64,000 nucleotides of DNA from the human T2T-CHM13v2.0 reference genome, Homo sapiens (GCF_009914755.1 NC_060935.1), one strand, 5' to 3'. Numbered from the stretch's first letter, positions 6,621 through 25,983 are shown. Notes: generated by a model not told the origin, from the letters alone. Made by a program: numbers and translations.

Positions 6621-7019
6621 GATGGACTCCATAGTCTGTACCATGACTTCTTAGCTGCTTTTCCTGGACCTTGTATACAGATGTCTCCCTGGAATTCTAA
6701 ACCTCATAAGGAAAGAAGCTGTGCTGGGAAAGACAGGAAGGAAGCACAGAGAAAAGCAAATGAACACAAACTGTTGGAGAGGAAAAGCCACTATTGAAGA
6801 GGCTGCCAGGAAATATGAGAGACTTTCCCTACCCCGATGCTATGATTTTTGTCCTAGTTTGAACTGTACCCAGAAATAAAATTGTCCTCTTCATTTTTAC
6901 TTCTCTGAAATCTTTCATGTTCACGGGAAGATGTGTGAAAGTTTTCTCTTCTACTGCCATCCTTTCACAAACCCTAAGGCTCTTCTCTGAGGCTTGGTCC
7001 ACTATGGCATCCATAGAGC

Positions 7020-7175
7020 TGCTTGGTGCAGTAGAAAGTTGGTTCTCAAAATCAGACAGGCTTGGATTTGTATTCCTCTTCAGCTATTACTAACCCGTGT
7101 GATCTGTGTGATCTGTACAAGTCACTTAACTCTTGGGGGCCTTAGTCTCTTTGTTCATCAAATGGGAATACTAAT
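7020..7175 (+). mobile_element. MIR SINE (followed by an antisense L2 3' fragment at ~7190-7390)
   Basis: CAAGTCACTTAACTCTT...TCATCAAATGGGAATA MIR core; TTCATTAAGTCAACCAATATCTATTGATTACCTACT L2 tail. Confidence 0.65.
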
Positions 7176-19320: not shown

Positions 19321-19565
19321 ATTCCTCTTATTTTTTTTTTTAAAGTTTACTTTAAGTTCTGGGATACAAGTGCAGAACGTGTAGGTTTGTAACATAGGTA
19401 TATGTGTGCCATGGTGGTTTGCTGCACCTATCCACTTATCATGTAGTTTTGAAACCCTGCATGCATTAGCTATTTGTCCTCATGCTCTCCCTCCCCTCCC
19501 CTCACCCCCGAAACCCCTACTAGCCCTGTGTTGCTCCCCTCCATTTGTCCATGTGTTCTCATCGT

Positions 19566-22500
19566 TCAACTCCCACTTATGAGGTAGAAAATGCGGTATT
19601 TCATTTTTGTTTTTTGGTGTTAGTTTGCTGAGGATGATGACTTCCAGCTGTATCCATGTCCCTGCAAAGGATATAATCTCATTCCTTTTAATGGCTGCAT
19701 AGTTATTCCATGGTATATATGTACCACATTTTCTTATTCCAGTCTATCATTGATGGGCATTTGGGTTGGTTCCATGTCTTTGCTATTGTAAGCAGTGCTG
19801 CAATAAACATATGTATGCATATGTCTTTATAGTAGAATGATTTATATTCCTTTGGGTATATACCCAGTAGTGGGATTGCTGGGTCAAATGGTATTTCTGG
19901 TTCTAGATCCTCGAGGAATCACTACACTGTCTTCTGCAATGTTTGAACTAATTTATATTCCCACCTACACTGTAAAAGCATTCCTATTTCTCCACAGCCT
20001 TGCCAGCATCTATTGTTTCTTGACTTTTTAATAATCACCATTCTGACTAGCATGAGATGGTATCTCATTGTGGTTTTGATTTGCATTTCTCTAATGATCA
20101 GTGATGTTGGGCTTTTTTTCATATGCTTGTTGGACGCTCCCATTGTCTGAGGAGGAGCTTAAAGTAAAGACATAAATATCTTTTTTTTGAGAAGTGTCTG
20201 TTCATATTCTTTCCCCAGTTTTTGATAAGGTTTTTTTTTTTTTTTTTGTAAATTTGTTTAAGTTCCTTGGAGATTCTGGATATTAGACCTTTGTCGGATG
20301 GGTAGATTGCAAAAATTGTCTCCCATTTTGTAGAATGCCGGTTCATTCTGATGATAGTTTCTTTTGCTGTGCAGAAGTTCTTTAGTTTGATTAGATCCCA
20401 TTTGTTAATTTTGGCTTCTGTTGCAATTGTTTTTGGCATTTTCATCATGAAGTCCTTGCCCATGCCTATGTCCTAAATAGTATTGCCTAGGTTTTCTTCT
20501 AGTGTTTTTATGGTTTTGGGTTTTACATTTAAGTCTTTAATCCATCTTGAGTTAATTTTTGTATAAGGTATAAGGACAGGGTCCAGTTTCAGTTTTCTGC
20601 ATATGGCTAGCCAGTTTTCCCAGCACAATTTATTAAATAGGGAGTCTTTTCCCCATTGCTTGCTTTTGTCAGATTTGTCAAAGATCAGATGGTTGTAGGT
20701 GTGTGGTGTTATTTCTGAGGCCTCTGTTCTGTTCCATTGGTCATATGTCTGTTTTGGTGCCAGTACCATGCTGTTTTGGCTACTGTAGCCTTGTAGTATA
20801 GTTTGAAGTCAGATAGGGGACGCCTCCAGCTTTGTTCTTTTTGTTTAGTAGGATTGTCTCAGCTATATGAACTCTTTTTTGGTTCCATATGAAATTTAAA
20901 GTAGTTTTTTCTAATTCTGTGAAGAATGTCAATGGTAATGTGATGAGAATAGCATTGAATCTATAAATTGCTTTGGGCAGTATGGCCATTTTCATGATAC
21001 TGATTCTTCCCATTCATGAGGATGGAATGTTTTCCCATTTGGTTGTGTCCTCTCTTATTTTCTTGAGCGGTGGTTTGTAGCTCTTCTTGAAGAGATCCTT
21101 CACATCCCTTGTTAGCTATATTCCTAGGTATTTTGTTCTCTTTGTAGCAATTGTGAATGGGAGTTCATTCATGATTTTGCTCTCTGCTTGTCTATTGTTG
21201 GTGTATAGGAATATCTGTGATTTTTGCACATTGATATTGAATCTTGAGACTTTGGTGAAGTTGTTTATTAGCTTAGGGTGTTTTCTGGGCTGAGATGGTG
21301 GCGTTTTCTAAATATGGAATTATATTGACTGCAAGTAGAGACAATTTGACTTCCTCTCTTCCTATTTGAATACTGTTTATTTCTTTCTCTTGCCCGATTG
21401 CCCTGGTCAGACTTCCAATACTATGTTGAATAGGAGTGGTGAGAGAGGGCATCCTTATCTTGTGCTGGTTTTCAAAGGGAATGCTTCCAGCTTTTGCCCA
21501 TTTGGCATGATATCGGCTGTAGGTTTGTCATAAATGCCTCTTATTATTTTGAGACATGTTCCATCAATACTTAGTTTATTGAGAGTTTTTAACATGAAGT
21601 GATGTTGAATTTTATTGAAGGCCTTTCCTGCATCTATTGAGATAATCGTGTGGTTTTGGTCATTGGTTCTGTTTATGTGATGGATTACGTTTATTGATTT
21701 GCATATGTTGAACCAGCCTTGCATCCCAGGGATGAAGCCAACTTGATCGTGGTGGATAAGCTGTTTGATGTGCTGCTGGATTCAGTTTGCCAGTATTTTA
21801 TTGAGGATTTTCACATCGATGTTCATCAGGAATATTGGCCTGAAGTTTTCTTTTTTTGTTGTGCCTCTGCCAGGTTTTGGTATCAGGATGATGCTGGCCT
21901 CATAAAATGAGTTAGGGAGAACTCCCTCCTTTTCAGTTGTTTGGGATAGTTTCAGAAGGAATGGTACCAGCTCCTCTTTGTACTTGTGGTAGAATTCGGC
22001 TGTGAATTCTTCTGGTCCTGAGCTTTTTTTGGTTGGTAGGTTATTAATTACTGCCTCAATGTCAGCACTTGTTATTGGTCTTTTCATGGATTCAACTTCT
22101 TTCTGGTTTAGTCTTGGGAGGGTGTATGTGTCCAGGAATTTATCCATTTCTTCTAGATTTTCTAGTTTATTTGCTCAGAGGTGTTTATAGTATGCTGTGA
22201 TGGTAGTTTCTATTTCTGTGGGGTCAATGGTGACATCCCCTTTATCATTTTTTATTTTCTCTATTTGATTCTTTGCTCTTCTTTATTAGTCTAGGTAGCA
22301 GTCAATCTATTTTGTTAATTTTTTCAAAAAATCAGCTCCTGGATTCATTGATTTTTTCAAGTGCTTTTTTTGTGTCTCTATCTCCTTCAGTTCTGCTCTG
22401 ATCTTACTTATTTCTTGTCTTCTGCTAGATTTTGGATTTGTTTGCTCTTGCTTCTCTAGCTCCTTTTATTGTGATGTTAGGTTGTCTATTTGAAATCTTT

Positions 22501-23418
22501 CCAGCTTTCTGATGTGGGCATTTATTGCTATACATTTCCCTTTTAACAGTGCTTTAGCTGTGTCCCAGAGATTCTGGTACTTTGTCTGTTTGTTCTCATT
22601 GGTTTCAAAAAACTTCTTGATTTCTGCCTTAATTTCATGATTTACCCAGGAGTTGTTCAGGAACAGGTTGTTCAATTTCCATGTAATTGTGTGGTTTTGA
22701 GTGAGTTCTAATTTGGTACTGTGGTCTGAGAGACTGTTTATTATGATTTCAGTTCTTTTGTATTTGATGAGGTTTGTTTTGCTTCCAATTTTGTGGTCTA
22801 TTTTAGAATAAGTGCCATGTGGCACTGAGTAGAATGTATATTCTGTTGATTTGGGGTGGAGAATTCGGTAGATGGCTACTAGGTCCACTTGATCCAGAGC
22901 TGAATTCAAGTCCTGAATATCCTTATTAATTTTCTGTCTCATTTATTTGTCTAATATTGACAGTTAAAGTCTCCCACTATTATTGTGTGGGAGTCTAAAT
23001 CTTTTCATAGGTCTCTACGAACTTGTTTTATAAATCTGCGTGGTTCTGTACTGGGTGCATATATATTCAGGATAGTTAGCTCTTCTTGTTGAATTGATCC
23101 CTTTGCCATTATGTAATGCCCCTCTTTGTCTTTTTTTAAAATCTGTGTTGGTGTAAAATCTGTTTTATCAGAGACTAGGGTTATACTAGGGTTGTAACCC
23201 ATGCTTTTTTTGTTTTTCTTTTCATTTTTGGTAAATTTTCCTCAATACCTCTATTTTGAGCCTATATAGGTCTTTGCATGTGACATAGGTCTCCTGAATA
23301 CAGCACATGATGGGTTTTCACTCTTTAACCAACTTTCCAGTCTGTGTCTTTTAATTGGGGCATTTAGCTCATTTACATTTAAGGTTAATATTGTTATGTG
23401 TGAATTTGATCCTGTCAT
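19566..23418 (-). pseudogene. L1 ORF2 (endonuclease/reverse transcriptase), multiply disrupted
   Basis: Starts MTGSNSHITILTLNVN (ATG at 23418); fragments [80 protein letters not shown]. Confidence 0.93.
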
Positions 23419-23479
23419 CATGATGCTATCTGGTTATTTTGCACACTAGTTGGTGAAGTTTCTTCATGGTGCCATTGTG

Positions 23480-24502
23480 CCACTGGTTTTTATATTTTGG
23501 TGTGTTTTGCAGTGGCTGGTACCAACTTTTCCTTTCCATATTTAGTGCTTTCTTCAGGAGCTTTTGCAAGGTGGTGACAAAATCTCTCAGCATTTTTTTG
23601 TCTGGAAAGGATTTAATTTCTCCTTTGCTTATGAAGATTCGTTTGACTGGATATGAAATTCTGGGTTGAAAATTCTTTTCTTTAAGAATGTTGAATATTG
23701 ACTCCCACTCTCTTCTGGCTTGTTAAATTTCTGTTGAGAGATCCACTGTTAGTCTGATAGGCTTCCCTTTGTAGGTGACCTGCCCTTTCTCTCTGGTTGC
23801 CCTTAAGGTGTTTTTCTTCATTTCAACTATGGAGAATTTGATGACTATGTGTCTTGGGGCTGATCTTTTCATGTAATATCTTAGTGATGTTCTCTGTAGT
23901 TCCTGAATTTGAATGTTGGCCTGTCTTGTTAGGTTGCAGAAGTTCTCCTGAATAATATCCTGAAGTGTGTTTTCCAACATGGTTCCATTCTCCTGGTCTC
24001 TTTCAGGTACTCCAATCAATTGTAGGTTCAGTCTTTTTACATGGTCCCATATTTCTTGAAGGTTTTGTTTGTTCCTTTTTATTCTTTTTTCTCTAATCTT
24101 GTCTTCATGCCTTATTTCAGCAAGATGGTCTTCAAACTTTGATATCCTTTCTTCTGCTTGGCTGATTCAGCTATTGATACTTGTGTATGTTTCACAAAGT
24201 TCTTGTGCTCTGTTTTTCAGCTCTATCAGGTCATTTATGTTCCTTTCTAAACTAGTTATTCTAGTTAGCATCTCCTGTAACTTTTAATCAAGGTTCTTAG
24301 CTTCCTTGCATTGGGTTAGAACATGCTCCTGTATCTCAGTGGAGTTTATTACCCACCTTCTGAAGCCTAGTTCTGTCAATTCGTCCATCTCATGCTCTTT
24401 CCAGTTCTGTGCCCTTGCTGAAGGGGCATTGTGATCATTTGGAGGAGAAGAGGCACTCTGGCCTTTTGGGTTGTCAGCAGTTTTTCACTGATTCTGTCTC
24501 AT
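23480..24502 (-). pseudogene. L1 ORF1, disrupted
   Basis: IGVPE...LENTLQDIIQENF.NL.RQANIQIQE...REKGQVTYKGKPIRLT in ORF 23723..24019; early stop after the ATG at 24502. Confidence 0.9.
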
Positions 24503-25773
24503 CTTCATGAGTTTGTCTAGTTTCAATCTTTGAGGCTGCCGATCCTTAGATGGGGTTTCTGTGGGGACTTCTTTCATTGATGCTGTTGTTGTTGCTTTTT
24601 GTTTGTTTTTCTTTCAGTATTCAGGTCCCTCTTCTGTGGGGCTGCTGCGGTTTGCTGGGGTTTAACTTCAGACCCTATTTATCTGGTTTGCTCCTGTGTC
24701 TGGAGATGTCACTCGAGGAGGCTGGAGAATAGCAAAGATGCTCCTTCCTCTGGGATCCCTGCTCCTTCCTCTGGAATCTCTGACCTCGAGGAGCACCAAC
24801 CTGATGCCAGTAGGAATGCTCCTATATAGGGTGTCTGACAACCCCTGTTGGAGGGTCTCACCCAGTTGGGTGGCACAGGGAGCAGTACCCATTTCATGAA
24901 ACACTTTGTCCCTTGGTGGACGGGGTGTGCTTCATTGGGAGGAAATCCACTTGTCTGAGCTGCCCAGATTCCTCAGAACTAGCAGGAGGAAAGACCAAGT
25001 CTGCTGGTCTGCAGAGACTATGGCCACCCTTCCCCACAGGGGGTCAGGGCCAGGGAGATCAGCGTTCTGTCCTGAGCCCCTGGCTGGAGTTGTTGGAGTT
25101 CCTGCAGGGTGGCCCTGCCCAGTGAGGAGGGATGGGTCAGGATCAGGCCTGAAGAAGTATGTTGAGGTGTGAAGGATACCTCTTGGGACCAAATTGTCCA
25201 GCCTCCCTGGCTCCAGCAACGGAAAAGCACAGCCTGGAGCTATACAGATGGCTGCTGCCCTTCCCCCCGACACTGGGAGCTTAGTGTGTTAGGCAGCTAT
25301 CAGTTCCAGTGTTGGCTGCCACTCCTCCTCCAAGGAGCTCAAATGGCTTAAAAAACAGGCAGCTGCAGCTGTTATCCTGGCCTCTTCTCCCCCAGCTCCA
25401 CTCCCGTCTCCCTGGGGAGCTCAGCAGTCTTAACCAGATTTTAGCTGAGTGGCTGTTGAGAATCTGTGCCAGCCTCTGTGGTTGGAACCCTAGGCCTGGT
25501 GTCGTGGGCTCATGAGTGGGATCTTCTGATCTGTGGGTTGCACAGTTCCATGGAAAAACCATGGATTCCCAGGATGGGTAGCATGCTCAATCACTGCACC
25601 CTTGGCTAGGGGGTGGGGGCTCCCCTGCCCTACGTGGCTGTCAGGTGGGCCACCACACCACATTGCTCTTCCTTCCTCTTTGTGGGTCATCCCAGCCACC
25701 TAGTTAGTTCTGATGACATGACCTGGATATCTCGGTTGCCAGAGTGCAAGATTCGCACATTGTTACGGTTCTT

Positions 25774-25971
25774 GAGCATCTCAGGTCATCCCCAAACCGT
25801 TGGAAAAGACAGGACAGTGGCTGAGGACACATCACTCATTTTCCAGCCTTCAGATGTTCCGGTGTCTTCCCTATGGCTCTCCCAGTACCTGCAGGTCACA
25901 GGACAACAGGGGCTGTGGTAAAGTCACCTAGGTGTTCCTGGAACAAAGGAAATGGAACACTGGAGCAAATT
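25774..25971 (-). pseudogene. Retrocopied 5' exon(s) resembling a primate KRAB-ZNF gene leader, fused to the L1 5' end
   Basis: Minus strand reads CAGCCCCTGTTGTCCTGTGACCTGCAGGTACTGGGAGAGCCATAGGGAAGACACCGGAACATCTGAAGGCTGGAAAATG, resembling (from memory) first exons of ZNF91-subfamily / ZNF727-ZNF736-like genes; lies inside the L1 TSD. Confidence 0.65.
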
Positions 25972-25983
25972 ATTCTTCTTATT

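What the first reader, a model, noticed from the sequence alone, without database searches (positions are those of the whole stretch)
19321..25983. Near full-length L1 carrying a captured KRAB-ZNF-like spliced leader inside its TSD
Seen: L1 similarity ends near 25773, slightly short of the expected 5' terminus, but the matching TSD copy (ATTCTTCTTATT 25972-25983 vs ATTCCTCTTATT 19321-19332) lies ~200 bp further on. The older LTR-internal host sequence appears to resume after it, so 25774-25971 seems to have been inserted with the L1. On the L1 strand this segment reads ...CCTGTGACCTGCAGGTACTGGGAGAGCCATAGGGAAGACACCGGAACATCTGAAGGCTGGAAAATG (ATG at 25839-25837), then ~65 nt AGTGATGTGTCCTCAGCCAC...GATGCTCAAG, then L1. 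Recalled knowledge: primate ZNF91-subfamily genes (ZNF727/ZNF736-like) have first exons ending GAAATG before a GT donor, and no GT follows here. Inference: a transcript started at a KRAB-ZNF promoter, was spliced through a second small exon into an intronic L1, and was retrotransposed whole. That would be an L1 mobilised from a host ZNF promoter, analogous to MAST2 exon capture by SVA_F1. If several copies share the junction, it is an L1 transduction family driven by a gene family that represses retroelements.
Basis: partly seen in the sequence, partly recalled or inferred. Interest (0 to 1): 0.8.

Follow-up and report, generated by a model that had tools for sequence, protein, structure and literature searches.

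The report
L1 carrying captured KRAB-ZNF leader exons
An old, dead L1 retrotransposon on human chromosome 11 carries at its front end the spliced first two exons of a KRAB zinc-finger gene transcript, a real but already described kind of gene-L1 hybrid insertion.

Summary
A decayed, 6.4-kb L1 lies on the minus strand (19342-25773). It lacks about 55 nt of its family's 5' end and carries a 198-nt foreign leader (25774-25971). Leader and L1 sit inside one 12-bp target-site duplication (11/12 match; 42 of 20,000 shuffles). The leader is two blocks. Nt 25837-25965 match exon 1 of KRAB-ZNF genes, ending ATG before a GT donor; the best matches are two chr7 loci at 84% and 83%. Nt 25774-25836 match a segment 1.87-1.89 kb downstream in those loci, starting exactly after an AG acceptor. 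So a spliced KZNF 5' leader was captured. The second junction shows no splice donor in 0 of 8 paralogs. It sits in a 7-nt microhomology (AAGAACC). How leader and L1 were joined is therefore open: a KZNF-promoter fusion transcript (favoured, about 0.55) or reverse-transcriptase template switching (about 0.35). No other genomic copy shares the junction, so there is no transduction family. The class was published (Law and Burns 2026; 17 cases, one with ZNF681 exon 1). This locus is not in their Table S5, so it is a new member of a known kind. In passing, at least three more KZNF-exon-1/L1 hybrids turned up.

The parts
25972..25983 (-). 5' copy of the target-site duplication (AATAAGAAGAAT on the minus strand)
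   Evidence: 11/12 match to 19332-19321; 42 of 20,000 shuffles reach this
25837..25971 (-). Segment derived from KRAB-ZNF exon 1 (5' UTR ending in the initiator ATG at 25839-25837). Homology is firm for 25965-25837. The first 6 nt (25971-25966) are unassigned.
   Evidence: 84% (112/134) to chr7:65521874-65522006 and 83% to chr7:65253394-65253518. Those loci and chr19 loci continue with a GT donor after the ATG. KRAB box directly after this exon in retrocopy L008.
25774..25836 (-). Segment derived from a cassette exon in KZNF intron 1 ('block 2'), joined exactly at the exon-1 donor and the block-2 acceptor. It lacks 16 nt that all paralogs have.
   Evidence: identity 55/63 to chr7:64.62 Mb (L030) and 50/63 to each of the two chr7 ZNF loci. 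An AG acceptor lies immediately upstream in 5 of 8 paralogs. The segment is 1,893 and 1,868 nt downstream of exon 1 on the same strand.
25767..25773 (-). Junction microhomology AAGAACC, readable both as the end of the ZNF-derived block and as the start of L1 homology
   Evidence: most of the 15 aligned L1 siblings read AAAAGAACC or a one-base variant here. ZNF paralogs read AAGAGCC or AAGGACC and then continue with unrelated sequence.
19342..25773 (-). L1 body starting at about nt 56 of its family's 5' UTR. ORF1 remnants are at 23429-24166 and reverse-transcriptase remnants at 21458-22174. Many stops; decayed.
19333..19341 (-). Short poly(A) tail. The A-run is 19341-19331 and its last two A's overlap the TSD.
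19321..19332 (-). 3' copy of the target-site duplication (AATAAGAGGAAT on the minus strand)

Best explanation
One L1-mediated, target-primed insertion event placed a hybrid here. The hybrid is the spliced 5' end of a KRAB-ZNF transcript (exon 1 plus a cassette exon from intron 1 of a chr7q11-type KZNF gene) fused in sense to a near-full-length L1.

I put about 0.9 on this being a single chimeric insertion. That part is shown by the shared TSD, the exact exon-exon junction and the matching ages.

The favoured route, about 0.55, is inferred; the confidence given for this explanation is that of the route. On this route the hybrid already existed as RNA made from the KZNF promoter. An L1 that had lost the first ~55 nt of its own 5' UTR lay in sense orientation inside or just after the cassette exon of the source gene. 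Transcription from the KZNF promoter spliced exon 1 onto the cassette acceptor. It then read into the L1 and ended at the L1 poly(A) signal. The L1 proteins translated from that RNA copied it in cis.

This is promoter co-option, or spliced 5' transduction. It produced no detectable progeny. The captured ATG opens only a 17-codon ORF that stops inside the leader, so no fusion protein is implied.
For: - One TSD encloses leader and L1.
- The exon 1/block 2 junction is exact at donor and acceptor, across a 1.87-1.89 kb GT..AG intron in two chr7 loci.
- The leader is absent from L1 siblings. Among the 15 siblings aligned upstream, 12 share a different ~55-nt 5' end and none carries the leader. No scored genome hit to the leader other than self adjoins an L1 of this family.
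- Ages agree. Leader versus chr7 loci is 16-17% diverged. Sibling L1 pairs are 16.8% diverged, and the window copy is 8.8% from the family ancestor against 8.4% for siblings.
- The L1 is near full length (6.4 kb), as expected if its own proteins had to act in cis. This is also the pattern in 17 published mRNA/L1 chimeras (PMC13174262 section 13). That paper documents a source locus with a cryptic acceptor 15 bp upstream of a 5'-compromised L1 in RAP1GDS1.
- A second locus (chr14:39.72 Mb) has every ZNF junction at an exon-1 ATG donor, followed by 33 nt and then a full L1 5' end. This fits splicing onto an acceptor just upstream of an intronic L1.
- The captured ATG gives a 17-codon ORF.
Against: - No source was found. 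None of the four closest paralogous loci (two chr7 ZNF loci and the chr7:64.52/64.62 Mb pair) has an L1 at the junction point.
- No other genomic locus shares the junction.
- A 7-nt microhomology without splice signals is also what template switching predicts.
- Only 1.6 kb beyond block 2 was held for the chr7 loci.
- No outgroup genome was available, so co-arrival of leader and L1 rests on the TSD and the divergence figures alone.
- That the block is a used exon is inferred from the junction and the AG. It was not seen in annotation.
Confidence: 0.55

Rival explanations
1. Template switching during reverse transcription. ORF2p had copied an ordinary L1 RNA to within ~55 nt of its 5' end. The nascent cDNA then re-annealed at a 7-nt match inside the cassette exon of an unrelated, already spliced KZNF RNA and ran to that RNA's 5' end. 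This would be a chimeric retrogene of the U6/L1 type.
For: - The junction lies inside the exon-like block. No GT follows it in 0 of 8 paralogs, and there is a 7-nt overlap AAGAACC.
- No source locus with an L1 at that point was found, and no sibling shares the junction.
- This route also gives sense orientation and inclusion of the first exon.
- PMC13174262 lists template switching among the mechanisms.
Against: - The switch would have to fall in the last ~1% of a 6.5-kb template. From recall, not checked here, L1 parts of small-RNA chimeras are usually strongly truncated.
- The published authors disfavour it for near-full-length mRNA chimeras.
Confidence: 0.35
2. The reader's exact version, a sub-case of the fusion-RNA route. 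The cassette exon was spliced, in cis or in trans, from a donor at its end onto an acceptor inside the L1 5' UTR.
For: L1 siblings read ..AAAAG|AACC at the junction, so an AG precedes the first L1 base kept. In the published set, 6 of 17 chimeras end exactly at donors, and some L1 acceptors are known.
Against: - In 0 of 8 paralogs does GT follow the junction.
- ZNF homology continues through the 7 nt that would already be L1, which a clean exon-exon splice does not predict.
- No sense L1 was seen in the held part of the intron.
Confidence: 0.12
3. Two unrelated events. An older KZNF retrocopy fragment already lay here, an L1 later landed next to it, and the TSD match is chance.
For: The TSD has one mismatch, and no empty site could be examined.
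Against: - A TSD match this good arose in 42 of 20,000 shuffles, and it is the only candidate in 501 nt.
- The sequence after the L1 poly(A) does not continue the ZNF block.
- Leader and L1 divergences agree.
- No alternative TSD lies next to 25773.
Confidence: 0.03
4. The 198 nt are simply the normal 5' end of this L1 subfamily.
For: From recall, L1 5' UTRs have been replaced repeatedly in primates. This is echoed in PMC13174262 section 22.
Against: Twelve of 15 aligned siblings share a different ~55-nt 5' terminus followed by unrelated flanks. The leader search found 46 candidates in the genome. All 29 non-self loci read were genes, retrocopies, other hybrids or unexplained copies. None continues from the leader into the block 2/L1 junction of this family.
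Confidence: 0.01

Closest known systems
mRNA/lncRNA-LINE-1 5' chimeric insertions ('5' transduction events') of Law and Burns, Cell Genomics 2026 (PMC13174262). These include ZNF681 exon 1 plus a full-length L1 at hg38 chr3:94.44 Mb, and the RAP1GDS1/L1PA2 promoter co-option.
   Same: - First exon(s) of a gene, in sense, fused to a near-full-length L1.
- One TSD, a poly(A) tail and an exact exon-exon junction inside the leader.
- The partner in one published case is exon 1 of a KZNF gene of the same exon-1 type (Table S5).
- The source L1 is mostly not found in the gene (15 of 17).
   Different: - This locus is not among the 17 rows of Table S5.
- The leader/L1 junction is neither at a donor nor at L1 position 1. 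It lies ~55 nt into the 5' UTR, within a 7-nt microhomology.
- The second leader block is an unannotated (here) intron-1 cassette exon of a chr7-type KZNF.
SVA_F1 family carrying MAST2 exon 1 (recalled; no paper read here)
   Same: A host first exon with its promoter-proximal sequence, captured at the 5' end of a non-LTR retroelement by splicing.
   Different: SVA_F1 amplified into a family. Here the junction is single-copy, and the element is an autonomous L1, not an SVA.
Template-switch chimeric retrogenes such as U6/L1 (Buzdin-type; recalled). PMC4476161 was seen only in the search listing.
   Same: A 5' partner RNA fused to an L1 within one TSD, with a junction that lacks splice signals.
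   Different: The partner is a spliced Pol II transcript, not a small RNA. The L1 part is almost full length.

Membership tests
LINE-1 insertion made by target-primed reverse transcription | L1 ORF1 and ORF2 coding remnants | tested here: met
   Transposase_22 (E 2.2e-45), Tnp_22_trimer and Tnp_22_dsRBD at 24166-23429. RVT_1 (E 1.5e-11) at 21781-21458.
LINE-1 insertion made by target-primed reverse transcription | 3' poly(A) tail followed by a target-site duplication that also flanks the 5' end | tested here: met
   11-A run; 12-bp TSD matching 11/12; 42 of 20,000 shuffles
LINE-1 insertion made by target-primed reverse transcription | Endonuclease-type T-rich cleavage site at the target | tested here: inconclusive
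   the target reads ..GACTG/AATAAGA on the L1 strand. The start of the TSD is A-rich but it is not the textbook site. The consensus site is recalled.
mRNA/LINE-1 5' chimeric insertion (Law and Burns 2026) | Non-L1 sequence between the 5' TSD and the L1 that maps to the first exon(s) of a gene, in sense | tested here: met
mRNA/LINE-1 5' chimeric insertion (Law and Burns 2026) | Near-full-length L1 part | tested here: met
   only ~55 nt of the family 5' end are missing; the body is 6.4 kb
mRNA/LINE-1 5' chimeric insertion (Law and Burns 2026) | Leader and L1 arrive at the same time in a multi-species alignment | not testable with these tools
   No other primate genome is held. Indirect support only: leader and L1 divergences agree.
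mRNA/LINE-1 5' chimeric insertion (Law and Burns 2026) | Leader ends at a splice donor where it meets the L1 (seen in 6 of their 17; not obligatory) | tested here: not met
   GT follows the junction in 0 of 8 paralogs
Retroelement transduction family (SVA_F1/MAST2-like) | Several insertions sharing the same leader/element junction | tested here: not met
   4 candidates, 4 scored. They are the window itself, two block-2 paralogs and one plain L1. None spans the junction.
Template-switch chimeric retrogene | Junction at a non-splice position, with microhomology between the two RNAs | tested here: met
   7-nt AAGAACC overlap. The feature is compatible with this family but not exclusive to it.
Canonical 5' UTR of the L1 subfamily | The segment is shared by other full-length copies | tested here: not met
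   12 of 15 aligned siblings share another 5' terminus, and none carries the leader

The most novel reading that the evidence does not exclude
KRAB-ZNF first exons may be recurrent, perhaps over-represented, 5' partners of L1. Besides this locus and the published ZNF681 case, the same exon-1 type heads the following:
- an L1 bounded by its own TSD at chr1:110.88 Mb;
- an L1 inserted as a unit into an older L1 at chr14:39.72 Mb;
- a short exon-1/repeat-3'-end retrocopy with a perfect 13-nt TSD at chr6:115.12 Mb.
Four further L1-adjacent copies were not resolved.

If this is a real enrichment, promoters of the gene family that represses retroelements repeatedly launched L1s. One possible reason is that both are active in the same early-embryo or germline cells. 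Such captures could then be one route by which L1 renewed its 5' UTR.
Probability: 0.3. Interest if true: 0.6.

Novelty: new member of a known kind. Interest (0 to 1): 0.4.

Why it matters
The element is a clean, datable example of a host promoter-proximal exon pair captured at the front of an almost complete L1. The captured gene belongs to the family that silences retroelements. It adds a case to a small published catalogue of 17. In this case the first junction is certainly a splice and the second is certainly not at a conserved donor. That bears on the open question of whether such hybrids form as RNA (cis or trans splicing, read-through) or during reverse transcription. The element is old (roughly 8-9% from its family ancestor), decayed, single-copy and without progeny, so it has no present activity. 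The possible recurrence with KZNF exons is the part worth a systematic census.

Tried and rejected
- **Empty-site test through paralogs of the flanking sequence.**
- **Block 2 as unspliced intron directly after the ATG.** A weak alignment to a chr19 locus suggested this (L016). I rejected it because a far better match lies 1.9 kb downstream and begins exactly at an AG.
- **The chr7:64.62 Mb locus (best block-2 match, 55/63) as the source.** It has no KRAB or C2H2 motif within +-10 kb. It is a partial duplicate that begins ~420 nt downstream of exon 1, so it lacks exon 1.
- **The exon-1-like sequence as an interspersed repeat or an L1-family 5' UTR.** Rejected. The 29 loci read resolve as follows:
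  - 11 genomic copies with a GT donor;
  - 3 retrocopies with KRAB-A sequence directly after the ATG;
  - 2 probable differently spliced retrocopies (judged by eye);
  - 7 copies next to L1 or repeat sequence;
  - 1 block-2-only locus;
  - 5 unexplained.
- **Looking for an L1 acceptor at the chr1:110.88 Mb hybrid.** The search ran, but the loci could not be cut out.
- **L1 subfamily name.** No repeat library is held. I give divergence only.
Full report
**Anatomy**

The element lies on the minus strand. Reading 5' to 3' on that strand, it has these parts:
- TSD copy AATAAGAAGAAT (25983-25972).
- A 198-nt leader (25971-25774).
- The L1 body (25773-19342).
- An A-run (19341-19331).
- TSD copy AATAAGAGGAAT (19332-19321).

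The TSD pair is the only 12-mer match with at most 1 mismatch in the 501 nt upstream of the L1 (at <=2 mismatches only two overlapping registers of it). A match that good arose in 42 of 20,000 mononucleotide shuffles. Pfam finds the three L1 ORF1 domains at 24166-23429 and RVT_1 at 22174-21458. The frames are broken many times.

**Where the L1 starts**

A genome search with 25380-25800(-) gave 646 candidates, of which 40 were scored. Of the 29 non-self loci fetched, 23 align from 25773/25774; the other 6 start 9-31 nt further in. I aligned 15 of the 23 together with their upstream DNA. Twelve share a further ~55 nt that ends in unrelated flanks, 2 share part of it and 1 shares none. That shared stretch is the family's true 5' terminus, and the window lacks it.

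None of the 15 aligned siblings carries the leader. The leader is therefore foreign, and the L1 is 5'-truncated by about 55 nt.

**Age**

Over 358 nt of 5' UTR, the window differs from the 29 siblings by 17.2% on average. The siblings differ from each other by 16.8%. This puts the window 8.8% from the family ancestor and its siblings 8.4%.

A 701-nt ORF2 piece has best genomic matches of 87-89% (11,993 candidates, 40 scored). I infer an age of tens of millions of years. The subfamily name could not be determined with the tools held.

**What the leader is: block 1**

The 198 nt gave 46 genomic candidates, of which 40 were scored. Block 1 (25965-25837) matches chr7:65521874-65522006 at 84% (112/134) and chr7:65253394-65253518 at 83%. 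It also matches many loci at chr19:19.9-21.5 Mb. All of these read GGAAATG followed by GTGAGTG or a similar GT donor.

I read all 29 non-self loci. They sort as follows:
- 11 are genomic copies with a GT donor.
- 3 are retrocopies in which the ATG is followed directly by KRAB-A coding sequence. For L008, Pfam gives KRAB at E 2.1e-24.
- 2 look like differently spliced retrocopies (by eye, untested).
- 7 adjoin L1 or repeat sequence.
- 1 matches block 2 only.
- 5 are unexplained.

So block 1 is the first exon (5' UTR plus initiator ATG) of KRAB-ZNF genes.

**What the leader is: block 2**

Block 2 (25836-25774) first matched only chr7:64622111-64622144 and its twin (33/34). A 350-nt query from that locus found 88 candidates, of which 40 were scored. 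They include sites about 1.8-1.9 kb downstream of exon 1 in the two chr7 ZNF loci and sites 1-1.4 kb downstream of exon 1 in several chr19 loci.

In an alignment of 8 paralogs, block 2 is 55/63 identical to the chr7:64.62 Mb copy and 50/63 identical to each of the two chr7 ZNF loci. An AG (TTTGCAG| or TTTACAG|) stands immediately before its first base in 5 of 8 paralogs. All 8 paralogs have 17-19 nt, chiefly one 16-nt stretch, that the window lacks.

In the two chr7 loci, exon 1 and block 2 lie on the same strand, 1,893 and 1,868 nt apart, bounded by GT and AG. The window joins them to the nucleotide. This is an exon-exon junction.

The two chr7 loci are 89.5% identical to each other over 5.2 kb, so they are younger duplicates than the insertion. 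The leader is about equally far from both, so their common ancestor or a lost relative is the likely source.

The chr7:64.62 Mb locus is a partial duplicate. It begins ~420 nt downstream of exon 1 and has no KRAB or C2H2 motif within +-10 kb.

**The second junction**

ZNF homology continues to AAGAGCC or AAGGACC in the paralogs, which then go on with unrelated sequence. The L1 siblings read AAAAGAACC and then go on as the window does. The window reads AAGAACC (25773-25767). The junction therefore sits inside a 7-nt microhomology.

In 0 of 8 paralogs does GT follow it. An AG does precede the first retained L1 base in the siblings, so a splice from a donor that is not conserved cannot be excluded.

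No L1 homology is present in the 5.2 kb held for each chr7 locus. A query spanning the junction found no second copy in the genome: 4 of 4 candidates were scored, and they were the window itself, the block-2 pair and one plain L1.

**Mechanism**

The following are shown:
- The event was a single insertion (shared TSD).
- The leader is a spliced KZNF 5' end.
- Leader and L1 are equally old. The leader is 16-17% diverged from the chr7 loci, against 16.8% between L1 siblings.

How the two were joined is inferred.
- I favour a fusion RNA made from the KZNF promoter (0.55 in total). The main version is read-through from the cassette acceptor into a 5'-compromised L1 lying in that exon.
  - For it: the L1 is almost full length, as cis action of its proteins requires.
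  - For it: the published RAP1GDS1 source locus shows exactly this arrangement.
- Template switching by the reverse transcriptase at the microhomology is a serious rival (0.35), because no source L1 exists in any paralog examined.
- The captured ATG gives only a 17-codon ORF.

**Comparison with what is known**

Law and Burns (Cell Genomics 2026, PMC13174262) describe 17 mRNA or lncRNA/L1 5' chimeras. Of this paper I read the abstract and outline, passages, sections 13, 20 and 22 in full, and all three parts of Table S5.

In their set, 15 of 17 are in sense orientation, most L1s are longer than 5 kb, 6 end exactly at donors, and 15 of the gene loci have no intronic L1. One row is ZNF681 exon 1 fused to a full-length L1 at hg38 chr3:94.44 Mb. 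The only chr11 row is at 90.97 Mb with FHIP1A.

This locus is therefore not in Table S5. Their other tables were only term-searched, and three PDF supplements could not be read. Two literature searches found no other paper on KZNF-L1 hybrids in the held library.

The SVA_F1/MAST2 parallel and the U6/L1 chimeras are recalled, not read.

**Verdict**

It is wrong or unproven on two points: splicing into the L1, and the existence of a family. The element is a new member of a known kind.

**Seen in passing**

The same exon-1 type heads other L1 insertions.
- chr1:110.88 Mb: exon 1 ends at its ATG and runs straight into an old L1 5' UTR. A sense L1 of about 5 kb follows, and the unit has its own TSD.
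- chr14:39.72 Mb: the unit is exon 1, a second partial exon-1 copy, 33 nt and then a full L1 5' end. It was inserted as a unit into an older antisense L1 that is contiguous across it.
- chr6:115.12 Mb: exon 1 is followed by about 200 nt of a high-copy repeat 3' end. The insertion has a perfect 13-nt TSD.

Whether KZNF exons are over-represented among L1 partners was not tested.

Noticed in passing
L005+L079 (T2T chr1:110,877,352-110,887,000), leader at locus 1501-1636: A second KZNF-exon-1/L1 hybrid. Exon 1 ends at its ATG and is followed directly by an older L1 5' UTR (a multi-copy sequence, 451 candidates). A sense L1 then runs to about locus 6951-7130. An 11-mer TSD with 1 mismatch lies at 1469 and 7133.
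   Followed up: partly
L010+L078 (T2T chr14:39,716,873-39,726,500), leader at locus 1501-1621: Exon 1 is followed by a second, diverged copy of the last ~52 nt of exon 1, which starts at the internal CAG|GTAC. Then come 33 nt and a full L1 5' end. Both ZNF junctions fall at the ATG donor. The unit sits inside an older antisense L1 that is contiguous across it, with an overlap of about 20 nt.
   Followed up: partly
L004 (T2T chr6:115,120,733-115,123,838), locus 1415-1821: A short retrocopy with a perfect 13-nt TSD (AAAAAAAGCAAAG). It consists of KZNF exon 1 joined at its ATG to about 200 nt of a high-copy repeat 3' end with an A-rich tail (2,784 candidates, 91-93% identity). I recall that repeat as an older L1 3' end. 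The recall was not tested.
   Followed up: partly
L021 (T2T chr3:7.25 Mb), oriented locus 1441-1722: A 282-nt insert of exon 1, about 21 nt and about 100 nt that look like an L1 5' end. It lies inside the ORF2 of an older sense L1 that continues exactly across it. No poly(A) was seen. Unexplained.
   Followed up: no
L013 (chr6:66.08 Mb), L015+L080 (chr4:169.30 Mb), L020 (chr20:15.78 Mb): Further exon-1-like copies lie directly upstream of L1 5'-end-like or ORF1 sequence in sense. In L013 a stretch of about 30 nt lies between them, and only about 70 nt of L1 follow. Their 3' ends and TSDs were not examined.
   Followed up: no
T2T chr7:64,523,257-64,523,606 (+) and chr7:64,622,001-64,622,350 (-): Two copies of a partial KZNF 5' region, in inverted orientation and 100% identical over 350 nt. 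They lack exon 1 and have no KRAB or C2H2 motif within +-10 kb of the one examined. This looks like a recent inverted segmental duplication.
   Followed up: partly
T2T chr13:5.5 Mb, chr14:1.8 Mb, chr15:2.2-2.3 Mb, chr21:2.8-2.9 Mb, chr22:4.5-4.6 Mb: Copies of KZNF exon 1 with an intact GT donor, and copies of the intron-1 block, lie on the acrocentric short arms in near-identical sets.
   Followed up: no
window 25403-25425: Alignments of the 29 L1 siblings to the window's 5' UTR stop at about 25403-25425, although the query ran to 25380. The window or the family is variable here. Not examined.
   Followed up: no
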